Part shown: piece after piece, positions 46,701 through 50,233 of the stretch | Numbering within the stretch: position 1 is the first letter of the stretch | Layout: every line of letters starts with the position of its first letter | Origin: an uncultured virus (IMG/VR IMGVR_UViG_3300027760_000001) | Taxonomy: Duplodnaviria; Heunggongvirae; Uroviricota; Caudoviricetes | DNA length: 64,000 nucleotides | Direction: 5' to 3' (one strand) | IMG/VR virus record: IMGVR_UViG_3300027760_000001 | Notes under the pieces: model-generated | What the model saw: the letters and a program-made list of their open reading frames with translations, nothing else | What the model was told of the DNA's origin: nothing | The model's database searches: none | Translations under genes and position numbers: made by a program

Positions 46701-48131
46701 ATGAAGCTCAAAGAAAACGCACGTTGCGAAAAGATTGCTCGCACTGGTCGCATTGAAAGCTGGATGAATGATCCTGAAGGACGCCTGCCAGTGAGTTGTG
46801 CTGTGATGGTGGTAGAAGACTCAATGGAAGGGAGGAATGGCATTGAAGCGTCTTGGCGCTTTACTTCCCATGGTCTTCGCAATGGTGCTGGCGTAGCCAT
46901 TCATTTGTCCAAGCTTCGTGGTCGCAATCACCAGAATGGCAAGGGCCTCACGGCTTCCGGTCCTTGTTCATTCGGCAAGATCTATTCCACGTTGAATGAA
47001 ATTCTTCGTCGCGGGGGCAAGTTCAAGAACGGCGCTGTAGTGCTTCATCTTGATTACGATCACCCTGATGCCATGGAATTTATTTCCATGAAGCGAGAAG
47101 AGCTTCAATGGGCAAAACGCGCATTAAATGTAGACAGTGATTTCTTTGATAAAACCAGCCCAGAATTCAGGGCACAGTTGATCAAAGGCATTTCTAATGG
47201 TGATATTTGGCTTGTTAAAAAGAAATATGACAAAAATGGTGAGCGAGTGTATTTCCAAGTGTGCTTGGAAGTTGCCATGCCATCGCGAGGCACTTGTTTG
47301 CTGCAGCATGTAAATCTTGGCGCTTGCAAAGTGGACGATTTGCACGATGTTTTTCCAGAGGCAATGAAAGAATTGTGCGAGCTTCATGCTCGTACAGGCG
47401 TAGGAAACACTTCTGAATACCTTGGTCCTGATCAAGATAAGCAAGTGGGTCTTGGTATGCTTGGTCTCGCCAATTTCCTTTCCATCCATGGCGTCACTTA
47501 CAAAGAATTTGGAGAAGCCTTGGAAGCATGGAATGGCACGGATGTTACTGAATGGACAAAACTAAACAATACGAAAGTTGCTGACATCACTTTTGAGCTA
47601 GTGGTGGCAATTGAAAGGGCAGCGGAAGTAGCTCGTAAATACGGCATGCAACGTGCCTTTGCCATTGCTCCTACTGCCTCTTGCTCCTACCGCTACCTTG
47701 ATCTTGAAGGCTTCACTACCACGCCAGAAATTGCCCCTCCCATTGCTCAAGTTGTTGATCGCGATAGTGAGACGATGGGAGTGGAACGGTTTGATTATGG
47801 CCTCGTTGAAACGGCTGAGCAAGTGGGCTGGAAAGATTTCCGTAAAGTGGCAGATGGCATCATGAAGATCATGGAAGGCACTGGTCTTCTCCATGGTTAT
47901 TCAATGAACTGGTGGAGCGATATGGTTTCATGCGACGAAGATTTCCTTCGTGAATGGCTTAATAGTCCGCAAACTTCTCTTTATTACGCTCTTCAAGTGC
48001 AGGGAAATACGCAAGCAAAGGATGATGTTGGAGTAGACTTGGAAGAGAGCCTGAGTGAGTTCTTTAGTCTCGACGACGAGCCTGAAGTGTCTTCTTTTGA
48101 TGCTGGGTTCTGCAGCAGTTGCGCTGAATGA
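46701..48131 (+). CDS. nrdA: Ribonucleotide reductase alpha subunit, short cyanophage type
   Basis: RLPVSC, LRRGG, VCLEV, TCLL, IAPTASCS, SLYY, C-terminal CSSCAE. Confidence 0.9.
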   Translation: MKLKENARCEKIARTGRIESWMNDPEGRLPVSCAVMVVEDSMEGRNGIEASWRFTSHGLRNGAGVAIHLSKLRGRNHQNGKGLTASGPCSFGKIYSTLNEILRRGGKFKNGAVVLHLDYDHPDAMEFISMKREELQWAKRALNVDSDFFDKTSPEFRAQLIKGISNGDIWLVKKKYDKNGERVYFQVCLEVAMPSRGTCLLQHVNLGACKVDDLHDVFPEAMKELCELHARTGVGNTSEYLGPDQDKQVGLGMLGLANFLSIHGVTYKEFGEALEAWNGTDVTEWTKLNNTKVADITFELVVAIERAAEVARKYGMQRAFAIAPTASCSYRYLDLEGFTTTPEIAPPIAQVVDRDSETMGVERFDYGLVETAEQVGWKDFRKVADGIMKIMEGTGLLHGYSMNWWSDMVSCDEDFLREWLNSPQTSLYYALQVQGNTQAKDDVGVDLEESLSEFFSLDDEPEVSSFDAGFCSSCAE

Positions 48132-48201
48132 ACTATTAAAAAATGAGGCAGCATCTTTGCTGCCTTTTATTGTCTCTTTTTTCCCATCGCCCTTTTCCTC
48201 T

Positions 48202-48936
48202 ATGGCTACCAAGCTCGATTATTTTACTGCAGTGGCTAAAAAGCGTCCTTGGCAAGCAGTGCCAGTGACCAAAGGCGCCTTTGTCGAAGGTGCAGAAGAA
48301 ACCATCATGCGAGCACTGGCCATTCGCCACCTTGAGCTGCCTGTAAAGGACATGCTGCTAGAAGGCCTAGAGCGTGACCTTCCGGCATCTCCTGGGCTCA
48401 TCGAGAGCATCCATAGCAACATCCTTGATGAAGAGCGTCATGACCTTGCCTTGAACTATGTGGCGGCAGCTCATGGCACTGACGAAAAAGCAGAAAAGGA
48501 AGCTTTCCGCATTCGGCAAGCATGGGCAGACCACCCCGCCCACCCCATTGCCAAGGTGGCAGTGCTGGAAAGGAGCCTGTTCTTCACTATTCTTCCTTTC
48601 TTTCGTTTCAATGGTGACAAAGGACTGCGCACTGTTGCTAGTGACATTTCAAGGGACGAAATTTGTCATGCTTTTTGCCATACCAAGATTTGTGAAGAAG
48701 CTGGTGAAAAGTATGGCAATAGCTTGAACAAACTGCGTAAGATGACAGCGCTGTGGATTTATGACAATCTTGGCCAATCGTCTAATAAGTATCTAGATAA
48801 GGACTTCTGGCTGCGTCAAAGCGATAGCTTATTCATTAGCGGCAAAGCTCCTGAACTGAGCGACACCACTGCCAGCGTCATGCCAGCATTCTTTGAGGTG
48901 AATTCGCTGAACCTTCCTGCCTATGGCGCTGCGTAG
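48202..48936 (+). CDS. nrdB: Ribonucleotide reductase beta subunit (ferritin-like)
   Basis: HLELPV, DEERH, LERSLFF, DISRDEICH; adjacent to alpha. Confidence 0.82.
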   Translation: MATKLDYFTAVAKKRPWQAVPVTKGAFVEGAEETIMRALAIRHLELPVKDMLLEGLERDLPASPGLIESIHSNILDEERHDLALNYVAAAHGTDEKAEKEAFRIRQAWADHPAHPIAKVAVLERSLFFTILPFFRFNGDKGLRTVASDISRDEICHAFCHTKICEEAGEKYGNSLNKLRKMTALWIYDNLGQSSNKYLDKDFWLRQSDSLFISGKAPELSDTTASVMPAFFEVNSLNLPAYGAA

Positions 48937-48952
48937 TGCTATAGTTTGAAAC

Positions 48953-49380
48953 GATAGAGGCTTGGTCCCTGTTTGTCTACGCCTGGTTCACTCACAGCCC
49001 GATTGTCGGTAGGTCAGTCACACCAAGTTCTTCTGTCAATCCTCAGATGCCATTTCCTGGTTTCCGTAGTCTGGGGTGCTAAAAATGGAAATCAGCTTTC
49101 CCTCCATTGCTCTGTCGATGGAGAGCAGCACAAGGACTGGAAAATTCTGGTCCTTGCGTCTGCGTAGGGTTTGGTCCACCTTGGAGCCCTCGACCCATTT
49201 GGCAAGCTCGACGGACCTAGCGGTGGTTGCTGGCAATAGCCGGTGACCTACTTTGCAGAGACCGCTTAAACACCCCCTAAGCCTCTTAACAATGCTCAAA
49301 CAAGGGGGTCACTGGCCCTTGGTGTTGGATCACGCCAGGCACATAGCCTGGAACACTGGGTTCGATTCCCAGAAGCGCCC
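48953..49380 (+). ncRNA. Candidate large structured ncRNA (or ncRNA train) ending in a tRNA-like module
   Basis: Extended -10 TGcTATAGT at 48937-48945; continuous stems and pseudoknots; no credible ORF; T-arm CTGGG-TTCGATT-CCCAG. Confidence 0.6.
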
Positions 49381-49422
49381 TTCCCGCCCATGGTAAATTG
49401 GTGGCGTCATCCTTACGAAACC

Positions 49423-49962
49423 ATGAGCGCCTTTGTCACTTCAGACCTTCATTTGGGGCACAATAAAAGCCTCACTTTCCTCAAGCCAGATGGAAGCCTG
49501 CTACGTCCTTTCATGAACCTAGCAGACATGCACAATGTCTTGATTAGTCGCTGGAATAAAATAATTTCTCCCAAGGATAGAGTGTACATCCTTGGCGATG
49601 TAGCCATTGCACGAAATTCACTTTGCCTTTTGAATGAATTCAATGGGAGCAAAGTTCTCATCAAGGGAAATCATGACATATTTAAGCTTAAGGATTACTT
49701 GCCATATTTTGATGATATTCGCGGGGCCTTTGTTCGCGATGGCTTAATCTTCACCCATATTCCCATCCATAGCAAGTCTTTTGAGGGCCGTTACATCGGT
49801 AATGTACACGGTCATCTTCACTGTCATTCAGTCAGGCTTGATAATGGAGAAAAGGATAAGCGCTATTTCAATAGCTGCGTAGAACAGCATGATTTTACTC
49901 CAGTAGCATTGGAAGAAATCAAAGCCTACTTTGCGGGCAATGAACGAACGGCGCACGTTTGA
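49423..49962 (+). CDS. Calcineurin-like metallophosphoesterase
   Basis: SDLHLGH, LGD, GNHD, THIP, HGHLH. Confidence 0.9.
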   Translation: MSAFVTSDLHLGHNKSLTFLKPDGSLLRPFMNLADMHNVLISRWNKIISPKDRVYILGDVAIARNSLCLLNEFNGSKVLIKGNHDIFKLKDYLPYFDDIRGAFVRDGLIFTHIPIHSKSFEGRYIGNVHGHLHCHSVRLDNGEKDKRYFNSCVEQHDFTPVALEEIKAYFAGNERTAHV

Positions 49963-50176
49963 CACTCCAGTGAGGTCACGGTGGAATGCTCCCATTCATA
50001 ACATCCTGAAGGCAATTGACAGTCACACTGAACTATTTCTTTCCCATCGTGATCCTTGGCATTCAGAAAAGGCAAATGAACTCAGGCATTATTTGCATGA
50101 GTTAAAAGCTTATATTCACTCACAGGAAGAACTGCTGCAAGATAATCATTCGACTAATGCCCCTAGTCAGATTTGA
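49940..50176 (+). CDS. Hypothetical protein
   Basis: Overlaps the phosphoesterase end. Confidence 0.55.
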   Translation: MNERRTFDTPVRSRWNAPIHNILKAIDSHTELFLSHRDPWHSEKANELRHYLHELKAYIHSQEELLQDNHSTNAPSQI

Positions 50177-50233
50177 ACTGACACCTGTGCGAAGCTTAAA
50201 TTCGCTGCCTACTTCCAATTGGGCTACAGGGGC
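50158..50233 (-). tRNA. trnL: tRNA-Leu(UAA), short variable loop, CCA not encoded
   Basis: Acceptor GCCCCTG/TAGGGGC+A; anticodon arm GCGAA-TTTAAGC-TTCGC; T-arm GTCAG-TTCAAAT-CTGAC. Confidence 0.88.

What the first reader, a model, noticed from the sequence alone, without database searches (positions are those of the whole stretch)
48953..49380. About 430-nt, almost fully paired non-coding region with pseudoknots between nrdB and a metallophosphoesterase
Seen by hand folding: an extended -10 directly upstream. Rod 48953-49037 (GAUAGA..GGCUUGGU with ACCAAGUU..UCUGUC). H-type pseudoknot 49041-49095 (CCUCAGAU/GUCUGGGG; loop CUGGUUUCC pairs with GGAAAUCAG). Hairpin CUCCAUUG/CGAUGGAG. 11-bp hairpin 49131-49156. 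Multibranch domain 49160-49258 (GUAGG/CCUAC, GGUCC/GGACC, GAGC/GCUC) with a crossing AGCGGU/ACCGCU pairing. ACCCCCU/AGGGGGU stem, then a tRNA-like end. G-U pairs favour the + strand. I cannot match it to a named family. Inference: a large phage ncRNA or a processed train of small RNAs; the adjacent phosphoesterase could heal RNA ends.
Basis: partly seen in the sequence, partly recalled or inferred. Interest (0 to 1): 0.8.

Follow-up and report, generated by a model that had tools for sequence, protein, structure and literature searches.

The report
Cyanophage RNA with AbiF-antitoxin mimic
A freshwater cyanobacterial virus carries a roughly 360-base folded RNA gene whose last hairpin copies the small RNA that keeps a host suicide enzyme (AbiF) switched off, so it probably disarms that defence, and a tRNA look-alike behind it likely marks where the RNA is cut free.

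Summary
The 453-nt gap between nrdB and a phosphoesterase gene is a promoter-driven row of conserved RNA modules. Covariation in related phage contigs supports the 5' rod, the H-type pseudoknot, hairpin C, the inner two helices of the multibranch domain and the tRNA-like end.

The ACCCCCU/AGGGGGU stem is the Rfam abiF RNA (RF03085, 53.2 bits, cut-off 37). This RNA is the antitoxin of the AbiF HEPN RNase, a type III toxin-antitoxin defence.

- **Orphan in phages:** no Abi_2 gene was found in the 58 window ORFs tested or in two complete related phage genomes. In viral contigs 2 of 65 downstream ORFs are Abi_2, against 42 of 65 in bacteria.
- **Host copy:** Abi_2 occurs in 15 of 301 genomes of a picocyanobacterial family. 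The RNA upstream of it shares flanks, outer stem and bulge with the phage copy.
- **Processing:** the motif sits 4 nt before a tRNA or tRNA-like element, so RNase P probably makes its 3' end.

Best reading (about 0.6): a phage antitoxin-RNA mimic against host AbiF. The other modules match no Rfam family and their function is unknown. RNA-library contigs cover 48984-49283. No link to the phosphoesterase is supported. Earlier notes of this scan describe related cyanophage tRNA-like modules on other DNA, not this element.

The parts
48937..48945 (+). Extended -10 promoter element (TGnTATAGT), starting one base after the nrdB stop codon
   Evidence: Read from the sequence. I read the same TGnTAnnnT 6-8 nt before the rod in 13 of 17 rod homologues from the flanks printed. 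The strict two-hexamer scan does not report it.
48953..49037 (+). 5' rod: a long stem that begins about where transcription should start. It has a lower 8-9 bp helix, a 2-nt bulge, a 5-6 bp upper helix and a variable insert.
   Evidence: Fold. Model R1 gives 18 hits in 98 sources. 87.1% of cells are paired, the upper helix has 5 of 5 pairs with double changes, and 0 of 500 shuffles reach the score.
49041..49095 (+). H-type pseudoknot with invariant loops (GCCAUUU, GUA, A-rich loop 3). No Rfam family matches.
   Evidence: 10 distinct sequences from the window, S-SZBM1, viral and metagenome contigs. Model R2 recovers the positives. Rfam finds nothing at E<=10.
49102..49123 (+). Hairpin C: an 8-bp stem with the invariant loop CUCUGU. 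A 32-nt stretch around it (49098-49129) is 100% identical in otherwise different contigs.
   Evidence: Five distinct stems are all 8 of 8 paired. The 32-nt identity appears in 13 loci.
49131..49156 (+). Hairpin D, with a palindromic GGAAA(A/U)UUCC-type top
   Evidence: Fold. Variants with changed stem letters were seen by eye in printed flanks. No formal count was made.
49164..49251 (+). Multibranch domain. Its core at 49173-49217 has an outer GGUCC/GGACC helix, an inner GAGC/GCUC helix and a conserved 18-nt loop.
   Evidence: For the core, 13 sequences give 117 of 117 cells paired and 3 pairs with double changes. The outer GUAGG/CCUAC helix and the 49219-49224/49261-49266 crossing pairing are shared only with L391 and are untested.
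49269..49313 (+). abiF RNA motif (Rfam hit 49273-49309) with its conserved flanks: AACA on the 5' side and CACU (49310-49313) after the motif's last U on the 3' side
   Evidence: RF03085 scores 53.2 bits against a cut-off of 37, E 5e-09, over the full model 1-37. The alignment with picocyanobacterial AbiF leaders shows shared flanks, outer stem and CAAACA bulge.
49314..49380 (+). tRNA-like element (67 nt). It has a cloverleaf with a 3-bp D stem, A at position 33, a mismatch in the acceptor stem and no encoded CCA. The predicted RNase P site lies between 49313 and 49314.
   Evidence: ARAGORN calls it tRNA-Met(cat). No Rfam tRNA hit appears even at E<=10, and mascRNA-menRNA scores 26.9 bits against a cut-off of 42.5. 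Cloverleaf covariation in 15 sequences.
49390..49962 (+). Downstream phosphoesterase gene. It is a neighbour, probably co-transcribed, and is not shown to be part of the RNA's function.
   Evidence: phrog_547 phosphoesterase, 4e-43. There is no terminator between the RNA and the gene. An RNA-library contig spans 49337-49489.
48055..48936 (+). Upstream nrdB (ribonucleotide reductase beta subunit), a neighbour only
   Evidence: phrog_6799, 2.5e-101.

Best explanation
The gap holds a phage gene for a composite non-coding RNA.

Transcription starts at an extended -10 promoter, so the 5' end is buried in the rod. The transcript then runs through a pseudoknot, two hairpins and a branched domain, and ends with an abiF hairpin directly followed by a tRNA-like element. 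Host RNase P is inferred to cut at the 5' edge of the tRNA-like element (49313/49314). That would release an RNA of about 360 nt whose 3' end lies 4 nt after the abiF hairpin. In bacterial abiF RNAs the 3' end lies at about the same place, because a U-run follows the hairpin there.

The abiF hairpin is a copy of the antitoxin RNA that holds the host's AbiF HEPN ribonuclease inactive. The phage has no AbiF of its own. Made early and in quantity, the RNA would keep host AbiF inhibited when host transcription falls and the host's own antitoxin RNA decays. That would block abortive infection, as in the antitoxin mimicry known from pseudo-ToxI.

Shown here:
- family membership of the hairpin
- its orphan status in phages
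- its likeness to picocyanobacterial AbiF leaders
- its fixed spacing to tRNAs
- covariation of the other modules
- its presence in RNA libraries

Inferred: binding to AbiF, the timing of expression, RNase P cleavage, and any role of the rod, pseudoknot, hairpins and branched core (unknown, perhaps stability or further targets).
For: 1. The hairpin is a full-length RF03085 hit at 53.2 bits against a cut-off of 37.

2. The abiF RNA is the antitoxin of AbiF. RCd22 neutralises AbiF in cis and in trans by direct binding (abstract and passages of 10.1101/2025.04.15.648962). In the PbAbiF-RNA complex the RNA bulge blocks the RNase (passages of review PMC12737573).

3. The phage copy is an orphan.
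- No Abi_2 appears in 58 window ORFs.
- None appears in the complete genomes of S-SZBM1 and S-CREM1 or in three partial viral records (0 of 5).
- With one method, the ORF downstream of the motif is Abi_2 in 2 of 65 viral loci and in 42 of 65 bacterial loci (my hand count).

4. The toxin exists in the likely host group.
- Abi_2 scores over the cut-off in 15 of 301 genomes of the family of G227. G227 carries the alpha-carboxysome gene CsoS2.
- 8 of the 10 best loci have an abiF-like motif (29-34 bits) just upstream on the same strand.
- In 6 of these 8 (5 of them in alignment A8) the motif shares with the phage copy the 5' AACA, a C-rich/G-rich outer stem, the CAAACA bulge and the 3' UCACU.
- Gut-bacterial copies have other stems and flanks.

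5. Coupling to tRNA.
- The motif ends 4 nt before a true tRNA in S-SZBM1 (Ala) and S-CREM1 (Gly) and before the tRNA-like element here.
- A tRNA or tRNA-like element follows within a few nt in 25 of 80 viral loci. This is my hand union of three detectors: 15 by ARAGORN, 17 credible by the acceptor/T-arm test and 16 by model R3.
- A U-run follows the motif in 76 of 80 bacterial loci but in only 24 of 78 viral ones.

6. Loops and bulge stay at the family consensus while the stem letters covary among phages.

7. Contigs of two lake metatranscriptome runs match 49062-49283 and 48984-49265 with no differences. Their word depths are 143 and 134. A contig over 49337-49489 has depth 3.2.

8. [quoted passage not shown]
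Against: - No binding, rescue or infection experiment exists for this RNA.
- The host of this phage is unknown, so nobody has shown that it carries AbiF. Only 15 of 301 genomes of the candidate host family do.
- The host-family motifs differ from the phage copy in the apical loop: a mini-hairpin replaces the 5-nt consensus. They score below Rfam's cut-off, so cognate recognition is not assured.
- In C. difficile both of two abiF motifs were needed for neutralisation. The phage RNA has one.
- Contig data cannot show strand, ends or true level, and DNA may be present in RNA libraries. The two studies may be one campaign.
- RNase P cleavage is inferred from the tRNA-like shape alone.
- Most of the RNA (48953-49268) has no explained role.
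- A divergent phage toxin outside Pfam Abi_2 cannot be excluded.
Confidence: 0.6

Rival explanations
1. It is one large structured RNA of unknown, non-defence function, in the manner of GOLLD, ROOL or other phage RNAs found near tRNAs. On this view the abiF-like hairpin is only a reused structural brick or a stabilising 3' cap.
For: - The module order rod, pseudoknot, further modules, abiF, tRNA-like element recurs in many contigs.
- The loci found through the pseudoknot alone (L369, L374, L376, L390, L391) all carry abiF downstream.
- RNA-library contigs run unbroken across several modules.
- The loops of the pseudoknot and of hairpin C are invariant, which suggests functions of their own.
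Against: - Modules occur independently and in other combinations. The minimal units are rod + abiF + tRNA-like element (L013, L014).
- The hairpin keeps the sequence-specific loop and bulge of the AbiF antitoxin family. It also shares flanks with host-family AbiF leaders, which a mere structural cap would not need.
- GOLLD, ROOL, manA and wcaG do not match.
Confidence: 0.17
2. It is a cis-acting leader, riboswitch-like or a processing signal, that controls the downstream phosphoesterase gene.
For: - No terminator lies between the RNA and the gene.
- One RNA-library contig spans the tRNA-like element and the gene start (49337-49489).
- Phosphoesterase genes follow the abiF/tRNA-like unit in 5 of 65 viral loci found through abiF.
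Against: - The same modules lie inside tRNA arrays in S-SZBM1 and S-CREM1, with no such gene nearby.
- In L011, L013, L014, L023 and L034 other coding sequence lies between the RNA and the phosphoesterase gene.
- Most homologues of the gene that were scanned have no abiF nearby (15 of 20).
Confidence: 0.06
3. It is the decayed remains of a phage tRNA gene cluster, with no function of its own.
For: - In related myoviruses the modules sit among tRNA genes.
- The 3' element is tRNA-like but falls below Rfam's tRNA cut-off.
- S-SZBM1 has a T-arm-like remnant in the matching region.
Against: - Rod, pseudoknot, hairpin C and the branched core are not cloverleaf fragments. They show compensatory changes together with invariant loops.
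- A conserved promoter precedes them.
- They are present in RNA libraries.
Confidence: 0.04
4. The abiF RNA is the antitoxin of the phage's own toxin, encoded elsewhere in the phage and unrecognised. It would serve superinfection exclusion or addiction rather than counter-defence.
For: - Phage- and prophage-borne AbiF systems exist (C. difficile prophage).
- 2 of 65 viral loci do carry Abi_2 next to the motif.
Against: - No Abi_2 is found in two complete genomes that carry the motif or in three partial records.
- None is found in 58 window ORFs.
- These are lytic-type phages with the motif placed among tRNAs.
Confidence: 0.05

Closest known systems
abiF RNA motif (Rfam RF03085), also called AbiFr or RCd22: the antitoxin RNA of AbiF (Abi_2) HEPN RNases
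   Same: A full-length match over the curated cut-off. It has the same outer stem, 3-bp inner stem, apical loop and 3' bulge. Its flanks match those in picocyanobacterial AbiF leaders.
   Different: - No AbiF gene lies next to it or elsewhere in the phage.
- No U-run terminator follows it. A tRNA-like element does instead.
- It is the last domain of a much longer RNA.
- There is one copy, not the two of RCd22.
pseudo-ToxI of phage PhiTE: an RNA antitoxin mimic that defeats ToxIN (Blower et al. 2012, as cited in passages of PMC13064643; details recalled)
   Same: A phage-encoded RNA that looks like the host's type III antitoxin, with no toxin gene of its own, and is proposed to keep the host toxin inhibited during infection.
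   Different: - The toxin family differs (AbiF HEPN, not ToxN).
- It is a single hairpin, not tandem repeats.
- It is a natural, widespread and conserved feature, not an escape mutant.
- It is coupled to tRNA-type processing.
- Its activity is untested.
abiF sRNA annotated in Synechococcus phage S-CREM1 (PMC9964418)
   Same: The same motif in a cyanophage, directly 5' of a tRNA.
   Different: That paper, and the 2025 review PMC12197685, give no function and do not link it to toxin-antitoxin systems. Here it lies in a siphovirus-type phage as part of a promoter-rod-pseudoknot RNA.
tRNA-like 3'-end processing elements such as mascRNA behind MALAT1
   Same: A cloverleaf-like element directly behind a non-coding RNA. 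RNase P cutting there would make the upstream RNA's 3' end. The mascRNA-menRNA model gives the only Rfam hit on the element (26.9 bits).
   Different: The hit is below that family's cut-off of 42.5, so the element is not a member. This element is bacterial-tRNA-like, with a full anticodon arm. Cleavage has not been measured.
Hairpin at the cos site of lactococcal phage sk1, which inhibits AbiF (Zilberzwige-Tal et al. 2025, as reported in PMC13064643)
   Same: A phage nucleic-acid hairpin that counteracts AbiF.
   Different: That hairpin is reported not to resemble the AbiF ncRNA. The element here is a bona fide member of the ncRNA family.

Membership tests
abiF RNA (Rfam RF03085) | Covariance-model score at or above the curated gathering score (37 bits) over the full model | tested here: met
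   53.2 bits, model positions 1-37 of 37, E 5e-09.
abiF RNA (Rfam RF03085) | Lies just upstream of an abiF/Abi_2 gene on the same strand | tested here: not met
   The neighbours are nrdB and a phosphoesterase. No Abi_2 is found in 58 window ORFs or in related complete phage genomes.
abiF RNA (Rfam RF03085) | Binds and neutralises an AbiF toxin | not testable with these tools
   This needs co-expression, rescue and gel-shift tests. Only sequence likeness to host-family leaders is shown.
Phage RNA antitoxin mimic (pseudo-ToxI kind) | A phage RNA resembles the antitoxin RNA of a host toxin-antitoxin system, and the phage lacks the toxin | tested here: met
   Alignment A8 with picocyanobacterial AbiF leaders. 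Orphan status.
Phage RNA antitoxin mimic (pseudo-ToxI kind) | The phage's actual host carries the cognate toxin | tested here: inconclusive
   The host is unknown. Abi_2 is found in 15 of 301 genomes of a picocyanobacterial family and on plasmids of other unicellular cyanobacteria.
Phage RNA antitoxin mimic (pseudo-ToxI kind) | The RNA protects the phage from the abortive-infection system | not testable with these tools
   This needs plaque assays with and without the RNA on hosts that carry or lack AbiF.
tRNA (Rfam RF00005) | Score at or above the gathering score (29 bits) | tested here: not met
   No tRNA hit on 49314-49380 even at E<=10. ARAGORN does call it. Homologues in other contigs score 29.8-39.2 bits.
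tRNA (Rfam RF00005) | Cloverleaf kept by compensatory changes | tested here: met
   94.3% of cells paired, 10 of 20 pairs with double changes, 0 of 500 shuffles reach it.
tRNA (Rfam RF00005) | Canonical anticodon loop (U33) and a stable anticodon identity | tested here: not met
   The window has A at position 33. Across 15 homologues the 'anticodon' reads CAU, AAU, GAU or CAC, and position 33 is A, U or C.
   No such hit at gathering score in the window or at E<=10 in 48800-49500. There is no tmRNA. manA and wcaG are found in S-CREM1 by the same tool, which serves as a positive control.
mascRNA-menRNA (RF01684) | Score at or above the gathering score (42.5 bits) | tested here: not met
   26.9 bits.

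The most novel reading that the evidence does not exclude
The whole RNA is an anti-defence RNA array. On this reading each conserved module (rod, pseudoknot, hairpin C, branched core and the further modules seen in sister contigs) sequesters a different host RNA-binding defence or decay nuclease. abiF is simply the only module whose target can be named today. These modules would be swapped between freshwater cyanophages like cassettes, with tRNA-type processing as the common release mechanism.

My evidence does not exclude this but gives it no direct support. The non-abiF part finds no counterpart by BLAST in 301 host-family genomes. The pseudoknot model finds none in 151.
Probability: 0.12. 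Interest if true: 0.9.

Novelty: new variant of a known kind. Interest (0 to 1): 0.72.

Why it matters
AbiF is the toxin-antitoxin ancestor of Cas13, and its RNA antitoxin was characterised only in 2025.

- **A possible natural counter-defence to AbiF.** A conserved phage copy of that antitoxin, without the toxin, would be a natural RNA counter-defence against this family. I found none in print. The two searches were made; none of the 4 listed papers (of 5 holding the terms) proposes it, and I did not see the Cell 2025 paper.
- **It may be general.** In 63 of 65 viral loci tested, the abiF motif is not followed by an AbiF gene, so the strategy may reach well beyond cyanophages.
- **A defence in picocyanobacteria.** It points to AbiF as an active defence in freshwater picocyanobacteria.
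- **A processing solution.** RNase P at a tRNA-like element could replace a terminator, giving the decoy its proper 3' end without stopping transcription.
- **New RNA motifs.** It yields four covariation-supported RNA motifs that are absent from Rfam.
- **It is directly testable.** Simple co-expression rescue assays would decide it.

Tried and rejected
- **Bacterial scan for host copies.** It says nothing about cyanobacteria.
- **Sorting cyanobacterial genomes by psbA.** DNA identity to a cyanophage psbA piece did not discriminate: 77-81% across 171 of 401 genomes. I used the alpha-carboxysome gene CsoS2 as the marker instead. That this gene marks the picocyanobacterial lineage is recalled, not tested.
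- **Promoter and terminator scan.** It finds no + strand two-hexamer promoter and no terminator. The extended -10 rests on reading and on conservation.
- **Looser pseudoknot pattern.** In viral contigs it gave only chance hits beyond the known copies.
- **Host counterparts of the non-abiF modules.**
  - BLAST of 48953-49268 gave 1 marginal 22-nt hit in 301 genomes.
  - Pseudoknot model R2 gave 0 of 151 genomes (stricter filters). It recovers its positives.
  - None of the modules is found in 22 host AbiF loci.
- **RNA-library cover.**
  - The contigs do not cover nrdB, 48937-48983 or most of 49284-49336.
  - Missing cover in contig data is no evidence. Module borders are graph branch points in the DNA run too (loose ends at 49097, 49129, 49274 and 49316).
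- **Earlier notes of this scan.** Look-ups by sequence and by place returned nothing.
- **Papers I could not read.** The supplement of Weinberg et al. 2017, where the abiF motif is described, is not readable here, and the main text does not mention abiF. The Cell 2025 AbiF paper is not held. Either may bear on novelty.
- **Small ORFs in the gap.** None has a PHROG hit.
- The rods were then located by coordinates and by a covariance model.
Full report
**Where it lies**

The window is a phage. It encodes lambda-type tail proteins, a portal, Sak, ThyX, dCTP deaminase and ribonucleotide reductase. So it is a siphovirus-type phage, not T4-like. It shares RNA modules with Synechococcus phages S-SZBM1 and S-CREM1, and it occurs in freshwater metagenomes.

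The finding sits in the 453-nt gap between nrdB (48055-48936, phrog_6799) and a phosphoesterase gene (49390-49962, phrog_547). The four small ORFs in the gap have no PHROG hit.

As RNA, the + strand folds better than its shuffles (z = -2.67). The - strand does not (z = -1.21).

The stronger evidence is comparative. I collected relatives in four ways:
- through the phosphoesterase gene (55 loci)
- through pseudoknot patterns
- from GenBank phages

Each module of the window recurs in a different set of contigs. The results per module:

| Module | Coordinates | Evidence |
|---|---|---|
| Rod | 48953-49037 | Model R1: 18 hits in 98 sources. 87% of cells paired, upper helix 5 of 5 pairs with double changes, 0 of 500 shuffles as high. 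The alignment was fitted to the model. |
| Pseudoknot | 49041-49095 | 10 distinct sequences. 7 of 8 stem-1 pairs are paired in all 10, and 4 show double changes. For the crossing helix, one search gives 7-11 consecutive pairs in 9 sequences; for L369 I read a shifted register that gives 9. Several pairs are G-U and work only on the + strand. Three loop segments are invariant. |
| Hairpin C | 49102-49123 | Five different stems, all 8 of 8 paired, under an invariant loop. |
| Branched core | 49173-49217 | 117 of 117 cells paired, three pairs with double changes. |
| tRNA-like end | 49314-49380 | Cloverleaf 94.3% paired, 10 of 20 pairs with double changes. |

An extended -10 element precedes the rod by 6-8 nt in 13 of 17 homologues. 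I read this from the flanks printed; the script's own tally there is lower because it picked an overlapping hexamer.

Not assessable:
- the outermost helix of the branched domain and its proposed second crossing pairing, because only L391 shares them
- hairpin D, which I checked by eye only

The ACCCCCU/AGGGGGU stem is a full-length hit to the Rfam abiF RNA (RF03085): 53.2 bits against a cut-off of 37, at 49273-49309.

The same motif is annotated, without a function, in S-CREM1 (PMC9964418; passages). It is also present in S-SZBM1.

No other Rfam family matches any other module. This holds in the window at E<=10. It also holds in 20 sister RNA loci at E<=0.5, where only abiF (18 over the cut-off, 1 below), tRNA and mascRNA-like hits appear.

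**What the abiF RNA is**

It is the RNA antitoxin of the AbiF (Pfam Abi_2) HEPN ribonuclease, an abortive-infection toxin related to the ancestor of Cas13.
- RCd22 carries two abiF motifs and neutralises AbiF in cis and in trans by direct binding (10.1101/2025.04.15.648962; abstract and passages).
- A review reports the PbAbiF-RNA structure, in which nucleotides of the RNA bulge block the RNase (PMC12737573; passages).

**The phage copy is an orphan**
- No Abi_2 is found in 58 window ORFs.
- None is found in the complete S-SZBM1 and S-CREM1 genomes or in three partial viral records (0 of 5).
- I applied one method to both collections: the longest ORF starting within about 400 nt downstream of the motif, scanned with Pfam. 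It is Abi_2 in 2 of 65 viral loci (15 of the 80 had no ORF long enough). It is Abi_2 in 42 of 65 bacterial loci (my hand count).
- A U-run follows the hairpin in 76 of 80 bacterial loci but in only 24 of 78 viral ones.

**What follows it in phages**

The motif ends 4 nt before tRNA-Ala in S-SZBM1, before tRNA-Gly in S-CREM1, and before the tRNA-like element here.

Among the 80 viral loci, a tRNA or tRNA-like element follows within a few nucleotides in 25. This is my hand union of three detectors:
- 15 by ARAGORN
- 17 credible by an acceptor/T-arm test, after I set aside 3 of its 20 as dubious
- 16 by model R3

The element in the window is not a normal tRNA:
- It has no Rfam tRNA hit.
- It has A at position 33.
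- Its acceptor stem carries a mismatch.
- Its 'anticodon' differs among homologues.

Some homologues do just pass Rfam's tRNA cut-off.

I infer that RNase P cuts at 49313/49314. That would give the upstream RNA a 3' end at about the place where termination puts it in bacteria, while letting transcription run on. No terminator lies before the phosphoesterase gene.

**Does a likely host have the target?**

Host names are withheld, so I worked indirectly.
- In a sample of the phylum that holds two abiF-bearing MAGs, 32 of 401 genomes have Abi_2 over the cut-off.
- G227 and G285 carry CsoS2. I recall this alpha-carboxysome gene as a marker of the Prochlorococcus/Synechococcus/Cyanobium lineage.
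- In the family of G227, 15 of 301 genomes have Abi_2 over the cut-off, all in genomes of 1.5-4.0 Mb.
- In 8 of the 10 best loci, an abiF-like motif of 29-34 bits lies just upstream on the same strand.

In 6 of these 8 loci (L412-L417; five of them are in alignment A8), the host motif shares these features with the phage copy:
- the 5' AACA flank
- the C-rich/G-rich outer stem
- the inner-stem region
- the CAAACA bulge
- the 3' UCACU

They differ in the apical loop. There the host has a small inserted hairpin. Two phage variants (L011, L391) also carry an insertion at that place. Copies from gut bacteria have other stems and flanks.

The 'linker' before the tRNA-like element is therefore part of the AbiF RNA unit, not a tRNA leader.

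AbiF also occurs on plasmids of other unicellular cyanobacteria.

**Expression**

Contigs from two lake-water metatranscriptome runs match 49062-49283 and 48984-49265 without a difference (word depths 143 and 134). The two studies date from the same year and may be one campaign. A third contig covers 49337-49489 at depth 3.2.

This shows the sequence is present in RNA libraries and is continuous across modules. It does not show strand, ends or level.

**Reading**

The locus is a promoter-driven composite RNA whose 3' domain is an antitoxin mimic aimed at host AbiF. It would be released by tRNA-type processing.

This is the logic known from pseudo-ToxI. An AbiF-inhibiting phage hairpin of a different shape has also been reported (PMC13064643; passages).

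I put this reading at about 0.6. The main gaps:
- no binding or rescue test
- unknown host
- a different apical loop in the host copies
- a single motif, where RCd22 needs two

**The rest of the RNA**

The rod, pseudoknot, hairpins and branched core are real, conserved and unexplained. I found no host counterpart for them, so the idea that every module is a decoy has no support yet.

**The phosphoesterase**

Its link to the RNA is only local gene order. Of 20 loci found through that gene and scanned, 5 carry abiF. A sixth, L011, carries a variant copy.

**Prior knowledge and limits**
- Four of the five papers in the held library that name the motif were listed and looked at, and none proposes a decoy role.
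- I could not see the Cell 2025 AbiF paper or the Weinberg 2017 supplement.
- Earlier notes of this scan describe tRNA-like processing modules and tRNA-fused small RNAs in other freshwater cyanophages. I used these as leads only.

Noticed in passing
L369, L374, L199, L202, L212, L222, L262, L269 (directly 5' of their abiF motifs): Many sister RNAs carry another conserved module just before abiF. It is absent from the window and has a stem-loop beginning AAGUCCUG, a CAGGCCAGG segment and a UUGAUC segment. It has no Rfam match at E<=0.5.
   Followed up: no
L011 885-958 and L391 727-800: An abiF variant carries a hairpin of about 37 nt inserted in the apical loop (33.6 bits, below the cut-off, in L391). 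The picocyanobacterial AbiF leaders carry their small insertion at the same place.
   Followed up: partly
window 49098-49129, and L391, L376, L316, L243, L229, L202, L011: A 32-nt stretch around hairpin C is 100% identical in contigs whose flanks differ. This suggests a strong sequence constraint or recent exchange.
   Followed up: partly
L013 1143-1230, L010 67-155, L222 (after its abiF motif): These tRNA-like elements are larger, with two T-arm-like hairpins instead of one.
   Followed up: no
window 50158-50233 (- strand), and L015-L033: A tRNA-Leu(UAA) lies downstream of the phosphoesterase gene on the opposite strand, in the window and in relatives. In 9 of 20 relatives a Glutamine-II riboswitch sits beside it, but none is detected in the window.
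   Followed up: no
window 46701-48131 and 48055-48936: The ORF before nrdB matches only the first 135 of 523 positions of the ribonucleotide reductase barrel domain. It also overlaps the longest nrdB reading frame by 77 nt. It may be an unusual or split large subunit, or nrdB may start later.
   Followed up: no
L196 2177-2213 and 2348-2387 (- strand): Two tandem abiF-like motifs below the cut-off lie upstream of an Abi_2 gene. That gene's protein is identical to an Abi family protein on plasmid NC_010477.1. The two-motif layout is like that of RCd22.
   Followed up: partly
L200, L206, L227 (viral contigs): A third context for an orphan abiF motif. It has the same UCACU 3' flank but is followed neither by a tRNA-like element nor by a U-run, and it lies after a gene end.
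   Followed up: no
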